Positions 6,001 through 9,000 of a stretch of DNA of 64,000 nucleotides are shown here, piece after piece. The first letter of the stretch is position 1, and each line of letters starts with the position of its first letter. Made by a program: the position numbers. The stretch comes from Carcharhinus amblyrhynchos (Eukaryota), in assembly GCA_965287045.1 (NCBI GenBank), contig OZ336877.1, forward strand, positions 57,722,001 to 57,786,000, given 5' to 3'.

Positions 6001-9000
6001 CTGCCAAAGGGGCATGATTAATGAGCTGTGCTGCAGTCGCTCAAGTACCCACCAGGTGACTAATGTTTTTCTTGATAGGTAACTAGCTTTGGGGTTTCTA
6101 GAGATTGTTTCAAAGATACAGGAATTATTTATACCATTCCTTTCTTCATATTCATTCATGGGATGCGACTCAACAGCAGCTTCACAATGGCTGCTGTGAG
6201 ATTACTGCAGATTTGAACAAGCACCTGAGAGAAATGGAAGCTAAAGTGCGCAGGGCTGCACCACGTTTCACCATTGCCTCTCTGGATGGTGAGTGTGTGG
6301 TGTTGTTTCTGGAGAATAGACTGAGCAAACTGACCAGCGTGACCAAGCAGGCATGGCAGGAGGGAGCTGAGGTAGTCATCAGTTACAGTGTGATTAACAG
6401 GACTGGAAAACAGTGCAGGAAGGGCTTTAATGACTGAGGATTGGGAAGATGTGTGCCTGGCAACTCTCACTTTGCCTCTCAGCTCCTTACAGTCTCCGAG
6501 AAGGCTGCAGGACACATTATTTGCAACAACACAGGAAATGGTCTCACAAGGTCCCATCATAATCCTTCACATATTCATATTGTGAGTTTACACTCATCCC
6601 TAAAAGCATGACCACGGACACCTCAATCTACAGTGAGGTCCAACAAATATTGCATCACCTTGTATCTTTCATGTTACTAGCAGTCTTCTATTTCTATAAG
6701 ATCATAAGAAATAGGCGTAGACCTAGACCATTCGACTCATCAGTCCTACTTCTGCCATAAGATCATGGCTGGTCTGATTGTGACCTTAACTATAACTTTT
6801 CTGAATGCCCCACACAATGCAAGACTTCCCTGGAGATAAACAATCTGTCAAACTTGACCTTAATTATATTCAATGACCACTGCTCTCGGTGGAAGTGAGT
6901 GCTGATGATAAAGCAATGTTCCAAAAGCTTGTGATCCCAAATAAACCTGTTGGACTTCAACCTGGTGTTGTGGGCCTTCTTACTGTGTCCTTGTATTATA
7001 ACTTTCTGAAGTCTCTCATCATTCAAATAATATTCTGTTTTTCTATTCTTCCTGCCAAAGTGTTTTCTCACATTGGGGTAGTACGGTGGCACAGTGGTTA
7101 GCACTGCTGCCTCACAGTGCCAGCACTGAGCCATGCTCCCATGACCCTTTCTGATGTGAAACGCTGAGCAGAATTTGATTTAAAGAGACCTAGAAATAGT
7201 GGGAATGCTGGTAATATCAGGCTTTACTGTGGGTCTTTAACACAGCCTTGCCCTGTCTACAGCATTCTACTTTGGAGTTTCCCAACCAGAGAGAGTGGAT
7301 GCAATGATACACTGAACCACTGGAGGAAGGATTTCTAATTAAAAAGACCCCAGTAGGTGTCAGAATGGCTGAATGTTTACTTTATTCCAATCCAATCAAG
7401 TCAAATTAGATCCAACTGAGACATTCCTGATCCAAGCTGATAAGACAGGGCTCTCACCTCCTGTCTTGGGCTTGATCTACATGATCCAAGCTGATTGGAG
7501 TAGGTGTAGCTCCTCCTCCAAGGCTTGATCTTATTTGCATCCTAGCCAAAAGGCTGAGATGTTGCTTGAAAAAATTGCTTCAAATGAAGCTAAAATGTAA
7601 CCTAATGACTTCAACCAAGTGCAGCAAGTCAATACTACACTTGATCTTAGCCAAAAGGCTGAGAAGTGATCCTGTCCCACCCAGTGGGATGTTACAATGC
7701 CACTGATCATGGTTTCACCCCAAAATGGCTGAATGTTATATTAGTTCCTCAGCCTTCAGCAAACACAGCAATGAACAGGATACATGGGACAATTGCCTCT
7801 AATATCTCTGACTCTCACCTGAAGGTCATGCTATGAGATCTGAGGACCTGAAAAGAGGTCATGTTTGCCAGAGATAGGTGGGAGAGGCCAGCTTTCCAAA
7901 TTAAGGTGTTGATGGAAGTTGTTGACTAAGTGAACATGGTCCCTGAAACTTGCAGAGTGTGCACAGAGATTCGAGGACTTCGGCAGGGGTGGGTGCTTAC
8001 AGGGCACAAGTCATTTAACACCTATGGGTGTGTATCCTCACACCTGCAGCACAAGTGATTCCAGTTTTGGGTTGCTGTGTCGAGTTTGCACATTTTCCCC
8101 ATGCCTACATGAGTTTCCTTCTGGTGCTCTGATTTCCCCGCAACAGATATGTGGATTAGATGGATTGGCCATACTAAATTTCCCCTTAATGCCTCGAGAC
8201 GTGTAGGTTAGTGGGGTAAATATGTGGGTTGATGGGCTGAATGGCCTCCATCTGCACTGGAGGGATTCTATGATGTCAGCCAGGACCAGTCATGAAAGTC
8301 TAAGTTTCTTGGAGGCAATGGTACTCACACCTATTGAGAAAACCGATTTTATCTCTGCCTCAACAACCAATCTTGGGAGTCTCAAGTCCTTCTTGGCTGA
8401 TTTATGTGTCCATTCTCATAGTCTTATGGGATATCTTCGTGAACTTTGTGCCCTGAATAAATCTTCTATTGGGTAATCATCCCCATTATGTATCATGGTA
8501 TCACCCAAAGTTTAGACATTGGCATCAACGAAACCTAGTCATTTGACAGTGTTCTGCACATCCATACCTATCACAGCAAAGATTGAGACACTGATTTGGT
8601 CTCTTGTCAGCAGTGGAAGGTGCACTTTCAAAAGTTTCACAGTTCCAAAAACAATAGTCTGCCACTCATCAAGATTCTTTGCACCAATAATGATGTCAAA
8701 TACCAGCATTGCACTACAAGTAGAACAATTGCTACCCAAAGCTTTACCAGACACATTGATGTTGACATGCATGAAGTCACTAAGTCATCATCTATGAAAC
8801 AGCAGAAGCATCATTTGGTAAAGGAAGAACCCACAACAATGATTGGTTTGAGACCAACTCAACTGAAATGACACCCGTCCTTGATGCAAAAATATAAAGC
8901 CTACCTAATGCAGGGAAGGTAGTGGCATAGTGAAAATGTTGCTGGACTCGTAATCCATGGTAATGTTCTGGGGGCCTAGGTCTGAATCCTAGCACAGCAG

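What the first reader, a model, noticed from the sequence alone, without database searches (positions are those of the whole stretch)
7364..7737. U2 snRNA-headed retroposed element with 14-bp TSD
Seen: U2 nt 1-39 fused directly to ~250 nt of non-U2 sequence ending in AATAAA, bracketed by a 14-bp TSD, with ~50 extra nt 5' of the U2 part. Known: Keno (Tx1 group) and Utopia retrotransposons insert site-specifically ~37-38 nt into U2, and U1/U2-headed SINEs (SINEU) are described in crocodilians. Inference: this is a U2-promoter-driven SINE or a non-autonomous Keno/Utopia derivative in a shark, possibly uncatalogued.
Basis: partly seen in the sequence, partly recalled or inferred. Interest (0 to 1): 0.72.

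Follow-up and report, generated by a model that had tools for sequence, protein, structure and literature searches.

The report
Retroposed composite element with U2 head
A 346-base insert that starts with the first 39 bases of the U2 spliceosomal RNA was pasted here by a reverse-transcribing mobile element; it resembles a rare class of elements known only from crocodilians, but whether it belongs to a repeated family could not be tested.

Summary
The element lies on the minus strand. An insert of 346 nt (7723->7378) is bracketed by an exact 14-nt direct repeat (16 of 17 when extended), the only such pair in the window. It reads: a 53-nt 5' extension, then U2 nt 1-39 (Rfam U2, 50.1 bits against a cut-off of 46; only nt 1-39 align confidently), then a 254-nt body.

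The body is not simply non-U2. It holds a second copy of U2 stem-loop I and two more short U2 pieces. It also holds three hairpin modules. The first pairs U2 nt 25-38 with body nt 6-19.

There is no poly(A) tail, tRNA-like part or CpG. Four T-runs argue against Pol III. The U2 part stops within one base of the Keno/Utopia insertion site (PMC4640811).

Best reading: a target-primed retroposed copy of a SINEU-like non-autonomous lineage that passed through U2 genes. A one-off chimeric retrocopy is not excluded. No host genome, Dfam or Repbase was available, so copy number, partner LINE and transcription remain untested. The interest is moderate.

The parts
7721..7737 (.). Target-site duplication, copy on the 5' side of the element (exact core 7724-7737)
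   Evidence: (family D1)
7361..7377 (.). Target-site duplication, copy on the 3' side of the element (exact core 7364-7377). One mismatch at 7363 against 7723.
7378..7723 (-). The inserted element: 346 nt (343 nt if the duplication is 17 nt). Non-coding, 43% G+C, 0 CpG, strongly structured as RNA.
   Evidence: minimum free energy -125.1 kcal/mol against a shuffle mean of -96.4, z = -5.24, 0 of 100 shuffles as stable. CpG count; only short open frames.
7671..7723 (-). 5' extension of 53 nt upstream of U2 nt 1, origin unknown. A U1-like stretch is a lead only.
   Evidence: A 12-of-13 match to a U1-type string printed in PMC4494074 (reached by 1 of 5000 shuffles, but 7 tiles at 4 other window loci reach the same score). 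No Rfam U1 hit. The fold is no better than shuffles (z = 0.01).
7632..7670 (-). U2 snRNA nt 1-39 (the head), beginning exactly at U2 position 1
   Evidence: alignment to Rfam U2 with posterior probability near 1 across positions 1-39
7613..7646 (-). Hairpin module 0. U2 nt 25-38 (7646->7633) pairs with body nt 6-19 (7626->7613): 14 bp with 4 G.U pairs and no mismatch. The loop starts at the U2/body junction.
   Evidence: -19.8 kcal/mol, z = -4.50, 0 of 200 shuffles as stable
7569..7574 (-). Run of six T on the sense strand. Further runs of four T lie at 7653-7656, 7592-7595 and 7548-7551. These would act as Pol III terminators.
7535..7562 (-). Second U2-derived fragment (U2 nt 4 to about 27, stem-loop I)
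   Evidence: score 39, reached by 0 of 1000 shuffles; shuffle maximum 25. (Rfam U2 model positions 7-26, 14.4 bits). (family D2, 92% identity to the head).
7483..7533 (-). Hairpin module 1. It opens with a U2 nt 22-31 piece (7533->7524). The outer stem encloses an inner hairpin.
   Evidence: (-19.2 kcal/mol, z = -3.12, 0 of 200 shuffles as stable)
7428..7478 (-). Hairpin module 2. It opens with a U2 nt 24-31 piece (7478->7471). Its flanks are identical to those of module 1, but its 26-27-nt centre is unrelated and forms its own hairpin.
   Evidence: families D3 at 14 of 14 and D4 at 10 of 10. (-19.0 kcal/mol, z = -2.10, 7 of 200 shuffles as stable)..
7378..7427 (-). 3' tail region. AATAAA at 7386->7381 ends 3 nt before the end. 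No poly(A) and no microsatellite tail.
   Evidence: Not shared with the CR1 tails in the window.

Best explanation
This is a DNA copy of a non-coding composite RNA, inserted by target-primed reverse transcription by an endonuclease-bearing LINE. Most likely it is one member of a non-autonomous, SINEU-like retroposon lineage whose 5' end is built from snRNA pieces.

Proposed history (inferred):
1. An ancestor of the body sat in a U2 gene at the Keno/Utopia site (nt 38/39).
2. It was transcribed from U2 position 1 by the external U2 (Pol II) promoter, so its RNA carried U2 nt 1-38/39 as a head.
3. Earlier rounds of the same kind, or 5' additions by template switching as described for crocodilian SINEU-1, left the older, truncated U2 pieces now inside the body.
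4. The 53-nt extension was added at the 5' end by a template switch (possibly onto U1), or it comes from a start upstream of the master copy.
5. A LINE endonuclease nicked the + strand between T7377 and the A now at 7738. The cDNA was primed there, and the second nick 14-17 nt away produced the duplication.

Shown: the insertion with its duplication, the U2 head and its limits, the internal U2 pieces, the hairpins, and the lack of Pol III features.
Inferred: family status, a master copy in a U2 gene, Pol II transcription, the origin of the extension, and the partner LINE (a Tx1/Keno-type element is the guess).
For: Insertion:
- A 14-nt exact (16 of 17) duplication brackets the only U2 hit in the window.
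- There are no terminal inverted repeats.
- The nick site reads TGTT|ATAT on the + strand.

Head and junction:
- The head starts at U2 nt 1 and ends at nt 39.
- Utopia and Keno leave U2 from nt 39 on their 3' side (PMC4640811 section 6; PMC6136364 passage). By my arithmetic, a random break point in a 192-position model falls within one base of that site about 3 times in 192.

Signs of a multi-step lineage rather than a single fusion:
- There is a second U2 stem-loop I copy and two more U2 nt 22-31 and 24-31 pieces.
- Both larger U2 pieces carry A where the Rfam consensus has G at positions 4 and 11.
- The element has 0 CpG in 346 nt, where about 3.9 would be expected at the window's observed/expected ratio of 0.25.
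- Recurrent 5' addition of U1 or U2 pieces is the described hallmark of SINEU-1 (PMC4494074 Results).

Parallels with SINEU:
- Like SINEU, the element has internal T-runs and no Pol III promoter. It has four runs of at least four T, no A or B box within one mismatch, and no tRNA (PMC4494074 Discussion).
- SINEU-3 insertions have 16-nt duplications, and some SINEU-2 copies carry 31-42-nt or U1-like 5' extensions.
- Tx1-type LINEs are reported in whale shark and Callorhinchus (PMC8455134 passage).
Against: - No second copy or fragment of the element lies in the 64 kb window (all other hits have E of 0.32 or above).
- No partner LINE was identified. The window's LINEs are CR1 with (TTCTTATG)n or (TTCTATG)n tails that the element lacks.
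- There is no poly(A) tail, whereas all SINEU groups have one.
- This copy is not in a U2 gene and its 3' flank is not U2, so a strictly U2-specific partner would have had to insert off target.
- The immediate flanks (7124-8084) are not repeated in the window, so no target preference is visible.
- The U1 reading of the extension has no Rfam support.
- Searches with the element's two longest open frames as pseudo-proteins found no copies. One search found no candidate. One search found 2 hits at 33% and 42% identity, both internally repetitive sequences. This is a weak test, because such databases rarely hold non-coding repeats.
Confidence: 0.5

Rival explanations
1. A one-off chimeric retrocopy. 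A single transcript or template-switch product was reverse transcribed and inserted once, with no family behind it. Examples would be read-through from a U2 locus disrupted at nt 38/39, or reverse transcriptase jumping from another RNA onto a U2 5' fragment and then onto a third RNA.
For: - It is a single copy in the window.
- Its multi-part make-up is the form that multi-jump chimeras take. A tripartite LINE-made chimera is reported in PMC2104539 (search listing and start of abstract only).
- U1 and U2 chimeric and tailless retrocopies flanked by duplications are known in human (PMC4494074 Discussion).
- There is no poly(A) tail and no recognisable LINE-type tail.
Against: - In human, snRNAs other than U6 form template-switch chimeras extremely rarely, and the snRNA part is predominantly full length (passages of PMC4476161 and PMC11838501). 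Here the U2 part is cut at nt 39.
- That cut coincides with the Keno/Utopia site.
- Three further U2-derived pieces and three related hairpin modules in the body need several successive events.
- Both U2 pieces share the same two departures from the consensus.
Confidence: 0.3
2. An internally deleted, non-autonomous derivative of an autonomous U2-targeting LINE (Keno of the Tx1 clade, or Utopia). The body would be that LINE's 5' and 3' untranslated ends, with the head co-transcribed from the U2 target. This is a special case of the best explanation.
For: - The junction lies at U2 nt 38/39.
- Some Keno-related Tx1 families in crocodilians carry U1 or U2 heads (PMC4494074 Results).
- Tx1-type repeats exist in cartilaginous fish.
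- The duplication length is close to the 16 nt seen for Tx1-mobilised SINEU-3.
Against: - No Keno or Utopia sequence was available to compare.
- There is no Tx1-like frame in the window. Every reverse-transcriptase frame I noted carries the same CR1-type C-terminal motif; this was judged by eye, and only 5 of them were sent to Pfam.
- The 3' flank is not U2.
- The U2 pieces inside the body are not what LINE untranslated regions are expected to hold (inference).
Confidence: 0.15
3. A diverged full-length U2 pseudogene or variant U2 gene.
For: - Rfam aligns the full 192-position model and passes its gathering score (50.1 against 46).
- A T-run lies about where the Sm site would be, and hairpins lie where stem-loops III and IV would be (alignment).
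Against: - Posterior probabilities beyond position 39 are low.
- The body alone matches only model positions 7-26, at 14.4 bits and E = 0.78. That stretch is a repeat of stem-loop I, not the 3' half of U2.
- The element runs 101 nt beyond the Rfam match on the 3' side and 53 nt beyond it on the 5' side, all inside the duplication.
Confidence: 0.03
4. A cut-and-paste DNA transposon (for example the snRNA-gene-targeting Dada superfamily), or a chance juxtaposition.
For: Dada elements target small-RNA genes (PMC3706591 abstract passage).
Against: - Dada makes 6-7 bp duplications, and its reported targets are U6, U1 and tRNA genes.
- Here the duplication is 14-17 nt and the ends are not inverted repeats.
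- Chance is excluded for the U2 head (E = 5.6e-07) and is unlikely for the bracketing repeat.
Confidence: 0.02

Closest known systems
SINEU (SINEU-1, -2, -3) of crocodilians, Kojima 2015, PMC4494074
   Same: - Short (under 500 bp), non-coding and retroposed.
- The 5' end is made of U1 or U2 snRNA pieces.
- snRNA pieces were added repeatedly, so older pieces lie inside the element.
- Internal T-runs and no Pol III promoter.
- Some copies carry 5' extensions.
- Duplications of about 10-16 nt.
   Different: - All SINEU groups end in poly(A); this element does not.
- SINEU is reported from crocodilians only; this window looks like a cartilaginous fish.
- No Mariner-type target is visible here.
- Copy number is unknown here.
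- The hairpin modules that pair U2 nt 25-38 with the body are not mentioned in the parts of the paper I read. Its figures and supplements were not available.
Keno (Tx1 clade) and Utopia, U2-gene-specific non-LTR retrotransposons (PMC4640811; Kojima and Fujiwara 2004 as cited there)
   Same: The U2 part ends where these LINEs insert, with U2 continuing from nt 39 on their 3' side. Co-transcription with the target gene is the idea raised for SINEU and Tx1-Mar heads.
   Different: - This element has no open reading frame.
- It is not inside a U2 gene, and its 3' flank is not U2.
- No sequence comparison with any Keno or Utopia element was possible.
LINE-made chimeric and tailless snRNA retrocopies (U6/L1 chimeras; tailless U1 and U2 retropseudogenes)
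   Same: snRNA sequence is joined to other RNA-derived sequence and flanked by a duplication. It is made by a LINE reverse transcriptase. There is no A-tail, as in tailless retropseudogenes.
   Different: - In the described chimeras the snRNA part is mostly full length, and chimeras are rare for snRNAs other than U6 (PMC4476161, PMC11838501 passages).
- Here U2 is cut at nt 39 and the body itself holds more U2 pieces.

Membership tests
U2 snRNA gene or pseudogene (Rfam RF00004) | Score at or above the gathering cut-off | tested here: met
   50.1 bits against 46
U2 snRNA gene or pseudogene (Rfam RF00004) | Homology along the whole RNA: branch-site region onward, Sm site, stem-loops II to IV | tested here: not met
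   Only positions 1-39 align confidently. The body alone matches only positions 7-26, at 14.4 bits.
SINEU | 5' head derived from U1 or U2 snRNA | tested here: met
   U2 nt 1-39 at 7670->7632
SINEU | Short, non-coding, retroposed, with target-site alteration | tested here: met
   346 nt. The longest open frames that run into it are 73 aa (7485..7706, inside it) and 69 aa (7531..7740, which runs out into the 5'-side duplication). Duplication of 14-17 nt.
SINEU | Recurrent snRNA-derived additions, so older pieces lie inside the element (SINEU-1) | tested here: met
   Second stem-loop I copy and two further U2 pieces
SINEU | 3' poly(A) tail (all groups, PMC4494074 Results) | tested here: not met
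   The element ends 3 nt after AATAAA with no A-run
SINEU | Many genomic copies sharing one structure | not testable with these tools
   No host genome, Dfam or Repbase was available. 1 copy in 64 kb.
SINEU | Sequence homology to SINEU-1, -2 or -3 consensus sequences | not testable with these tools
   The consensus sequences are in figures, supplements and Repbase, none of which is held here. Only a 26-nt string from the text could be compared (12 of 13).
SINEU | Mobilised by Tx1-Mar LINEs, with a shared target preference | not testable with these tools
   No Tx1 element in the window. The flanks are not repeated in the window.
Keno or Utopia derivative | 5' junction with U2 at nt 38/39 | tested here: met
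   U2 identity runs to nt 39, and the next base differs from the Rfam consensus. The site is given in PMC4640811.
Keno or Utopia derivative | 3' junction followed by U2 from nt 39 | tested here: not met
   The 3' flank is the duplicated target, not U2. There is no other U2 hit in the window.
Keno or Utopia derivative | Ends shared with an autonomous Keno or Utopia element | not testable with these tools
   No reference sequences were available
Classical Pol III SINE (tRNA, 7SL or 5S head) | Internal Pol III promoter and no internal terminator | tested here: not met
   0 tRNA genes. No A or B box within one mismatch, using consensus motifs recalled from memory. Four runs of at least four T. No 7SL or 5S Rfam hit.
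Dada DNA transposons | 6-7 bp duplication and terminal inverted repeats | tested here: not met
   The duplication is 14-17 nt and the ends are not inverted repeats. The family's features come from PMC3706591.

The most novel reading that the evidence does not exclude
This is a copy of an uncatalogued family of snRNA-headed retroposons in a cartilaginous fish, which would be the first outside crocodilians. Its master copies would sit inside U2 genes and borrow the external U2 (Pol II) promoter. Its RNA would carry repeated hairpin modules in which U2 nt 25-38 (a stretch that, by recall, includes the branch-site-binding bases) is paired to element sequence. These modules might serve as a recognition or processing structure for a Keno-type LINE, much as R2 pairs its 5' end with upstream 28S sequence. 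That analogy is recalled, not checked in any call.
Probability: 0.25. Interest if true: 0.6.

Novelty: new member of a known kind. Interest (0 to 1): 0.4.

Why it matters
snRNA-headed retroposons raise an open question: how does a short element with no internal promoter get transcribed and keep spreading? In the literature I could search, they are described only from crocodilians. Search one search returned 7 papers and one search returned 8; judging by titles, starts of abstracts and the passages I read, none reports them in cartilaginous fish.

A second, independent lineage whose head begins at U2 +1 and ends at the Keno/Utopia site would support one specific idea. On that idea, such elements arise in snRNA genes that are hit by target-specific LINEs, and they ride the external Pol II promoter of the gene. 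It would also give a second system in which to test this. If the element is a single chimeric retrocopy, it is only a curiosity.

Tried and rejected
Searches for other copies:
- A self-BLAST of 7300-7800 against the window found nothing beyond the internal repeats and the duplication.
- The two longest open frames across the element were used as pseudo-protein queries. The plus frame (73 aa) had no candidate in the 5.8-billion-protein set. The minus frame (69 aa) had 2 hits among 1.84 billion representatives. Both are internally repetitive sequences matched at 33% and 42% identity over 33-43 residues, and I treated them as spurious.
- An exact 22-mer across the head/body junction had 0 matches in genome contigs. 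That collection is bacterial and archaeal, so the result says nothing about the host.

U1 origin of the extension: there was no Rfam U1 hit in three scans. The only support is a 12-of-13 match to a U1-type string printed in PMC4494074. By my recall of U1, which no call checked, about 16 of the first 18 bases resemble the stem-loop I region. I keep this as a lead.

Ribozymes and other RNA families: nothing near a gathering score in 7000-8100. The weak mir-218 hit (15.2 bits against 62) is a by-product of the palindromic module flanks.

Other rejected readings:
- A tail shared with the window's CR1 LINEs.
- Tandem repeat (0 rows).
- tRNA-like head (0 genes).
- Dada transposon.
- Full-length U2.

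Covariation among the three hairpin modules: 15 predicted pairs, 6 of them with changes on both sides. This rests on only three sequences from one element, and MAFFT placed the 3' arm of module 0 badly, so it is illustrative only.

Not available:
- Supplements and figures of PMC4494074 and PMC4640811 were not available. They hold the SINEU and Tx1 head alignments and the Utopia junctions, and may bear on how far known U2 heads extend.

The window holds no N and does not look human.
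Full report
**What is there.** The feature lies on the minus strand. Rfam at gathering thresholds finds one RNA family in the whole 64 kb window: U2 snRNA at 7670->7479, 50.1 bits against a cut-off of 46, E = 5.6e-07. The alignment is confident only for model positions 1-39 (7670->7632). When the 254-nt body (7631->7378) is scanned alone, U2 matches only model positions 7-26, at 7559->7540 with 14.4 bits and E = 0.78. The locus is therefore not a U2 gene or a full-length pseudogene. It is a U2 5' head joined to something else.

**The insertion.** The 14-mer AATGGCTGAATGTT occurs at 7364-7377 and 7724-7737. 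It extends to 17 nt with one mismatch. It is the only exact 14-mer direct-repeat pair spaced 150-700 nt apart in the window. Markov simulations of the window give a mean of 0.33 such pairs, with at least one in 13 of 60 simulations. The repeat alone is therefore not remarkable. A repeat that brackets the sole U2 hit is remarkable; by my arithmetic about 1e-4 are expected within 150-nt margins. The ends of the insert are not inverted repeats. The immediate flanks from 7124 to 8084 are not repeated elsewhere in the window. The + strand reads TGTT|ATAT at the presumed first nick. This is the signature of target-primed reverse transcription by an endonuclease-bearing LINE.

**Anatomy of the 346-nt insert, read 5' to 3' on the minus strand.**
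1. A 53-nt extension (7723->7671).
2. U2 nt 1-39 (7670->7632).
3. A 69-nt stretch whose nt 6-19 (7626->7613) pair with U2 nt 25-38. The pairing is 14 bp with four G.U pairs and no mismatch, and the loop begins at the U2/body junction (-19.8 kcal/mol, z = -4.50, 0 of 200 shuffles as stable).
4. A second copy of U2 stem-loop I (7562->7535; alignment score 39, reached by 0 of 1000 shuffles with a shuffle maximum of 25).
5. Two hairpin modules (7533->7483 and 7478->7428). Each opens with a U2 nt 22-31 or 24-31 piece. On the + strand their flanks are identical (GGCTTGATCT 10 of 10, TGATCCAAGCTGAT 14 of 14). Their 26-27-nt centres are unrelated, and each centre folds into its own stem (z = -3.12 with 0 of 200 shuffles as stable, and z = -2.10 with 7 of 200).
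6. A 50-nt tail with AATAAA ending 3 nt before the end and no poly(A).

The whole RNA is much more stable than shuffles (-125.1 against -96.4 kcal/mol, z = -5.24, 0 of 100). An RNAalifold run on the three modules predicted 15 pairs, 6 of them with changes on both sides. With only three sequences from one element and an imperfect alignment, this is illustrative only.

**What it lacks.**
- No tRNA-like part (0 genes).
- No other Rfam family near its cut-off.
- No A or B box within one mismatch; the consensus motifs used were recalled from memory.
- No CpG in 346 nt. About 15.8 would be expected from base composition alone, or about 3.9 at the window's observed/expected ratio of 0.25.
- No long open frame.
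- No tandem array.

Four sense-strand runs of at least four T, one of them six T, would stop Pol III.

**The junction.** Kojima and Jurka report that the U2 sequence downstream of Utopia insertions starts at nt 39, and that Keno uses the same 3' site (PMC4640811 section 6). A passage of PMC6136364 places the Keno site 37 nt into U2. Here U2 identity runs to nt 39 and then stops. A random break point would land within one base of that site about 3 times in 192 (my arithmetic). This is the best single argument that the head/body junction was made in DNA, by a site-specific insertion into a U2 gene, and was then transcribed from U2 position 1.

**Comparison with SINEU.** I read the Results and Discussion of Kojima 2015 (PMC4494074). 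SINEU elements:
- are shorter than 500 bp, apart from the dimeric SINEU-1D;
- have U1 or U2 heads;
- show recurrent 5' addition of snRNA pieces, so that older pieces end up inside;
- hold oligo-T runs that exclude Pol III;
- have no recognisable promoter;
- sometimes carry 5' extensions of 31-42 nt or U1-like ones;
- give duplications of about 10-16 nt;
- are thought to be moved by Keno-related Tx1 LINEs, some of which carry the same heads.

The present element shares all of these structural points. It differs in having no poly(A) tail; all SINEU groups have one. I could not compare sequences, because the consensus sequences are in figures, supplements and Repbase, which were not available.

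**The 5' extension.** It contains a 12-of-13 match to a U1-type string that the SINEU paper prints for SINEU-2B/C heads. Only 1 of 5000 shuffles reached that score. However, 7 tiles at 4 other window loci also reach it by matching other parts of the string. Rfam gives no U1 hit in three scans. From my recall of U1, which no call checked, the first 18 bases resemble the 5' side of stem-loop I. I treat a U1 origin as a lead. The alternative is that the 53 nt are the upstream flank of a master copy.

**Family or one-off.** This is the decisive question, and I could not test it. The window holds no second copy. No host genome, Dfam or Repbase was available. The open DNA collection is prokaryotic (0 matches, uninformative). 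Two pseudo-protein searches found nothing credible, which is a weak test.

Indirect evidence leans towards a lineage with several rounds of copying:
- The element holds four U2-derived pieces of decreasing completeness.
- The two larger U2 pieces share A for the consensus G at positions 4 and 11.
- CpG loss is complete.
- In the best-studied system, human L1, chimeras with snRNAs other than U6 are extremely rare, and the snRNA part is predominantly full length (passages of PMC4476161 and PMC11838501).

Against a family stand the missing tail, the unknown partner and the single copy. I put a SINEU-like lineage at about 0.5, a one-off chimera at about 0.3, and a plain Keno/Utopia deletion derivative at about 0.15. 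The deletion derivative is a special case of the first.

**Host and partner.** The window is full of CR1 LINE pieces, including a 796-aa open frame at 49163-51553 with RVT_1 and endonuclease domains. Its best named relative is from Scyliorhinus torazame (68% identity over 79% of the query). Unnamed hits reach 80% identity over 98% of the query and 88% over 57%. A cartilaginous fish is plausible but not proven. The CR1 copies end in (TTCTTATG)n or (TTCTATG)n, which the element lacks, so CR1 is an unlikely partner. Tx1-type repeats are reported in whale shark and Callorhinchus (PMC8455134 passage).

**Is it in print?** Four searches bear on this:
- 'SINEU', 411 papers; nearly all of the 30 listed are about SINEUP RNAs;
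- whole words SINEU and snRNA, 7 papers;
- 'snRNA-derived', SINE and retrotransposon, 8 papers;
- Tx1, shark and related terms, 89 papers, of which 15 were listed.

Judging by titles, starts of abstracts and the passages I read, none describes an snRNA-headed retroposon in cartilaginous fish. Repbase Reports and Dfam could not be searched, so the element may already be catalogued there.

**Verdict.** This is a real, well-bounded retroposed composite element with a genuine U2 head. It is of a known kind (snRNA-headed retroposon or chimeric retrocopy) in an unreported host group. Its internal hairpin architecture remains unexplained. The interest is moderate until copy number is known.

The window has no N. 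I do not take the window for human.

Noticed in passing
window 49163-51553 (+), tail to about 51650: A 796-aa uninterrupted CR1-type LINE frame (RVT_1 at 2.5e-35, Exo_endo_phos_2 weak), followed by a (TTCTATG)n tail. It may be a young or recently active copy. The best named relative is from Scyliorhinus torazame (68% identity).
   Followed up: partly
window 48164-49160 (+), 9700-10334 (-), 55856-56470 (+), 41950-42941 (-): Several copies of a second CR1 subfamily have near-identical 3' ends and (TTCTTATG)n tails. The copy ending near 49110 lies directly upstream of the 796-aa CR1, so the two are either adjacent or nested insertions.
   Followed up: partly
window 6938-6988 and 7075-7123: These are two short segments just upstream of the element's insertion site. 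Each recurs at five other places in the window at 81-95% identity. They are probably cores of abundant short interspersed repeats. ARAGORN finds no tRNA gene anywhere in the window.
   Followed up: no
window 32479-32973 (-): A 164-aa open frame with no Pfam match, overlapped by open frames on the other strand. It may be a fragment of another mobile element.
   Followed up: no
whole window: The CpG observed/expected ratio is 0.25, as expected for a heavily methylated vertebrate genome. There are no N bases.
   Followed up: no
window 7456-7505 (+): The palindromic block formed by the flanks of hairpin modules 1 and 2 gives a weak, sub-threshold mir-218 match (15.2 bits against a cut-off of 62). 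I take it as a by-product of the module structure, not a microRNA.
   Followed up: partly
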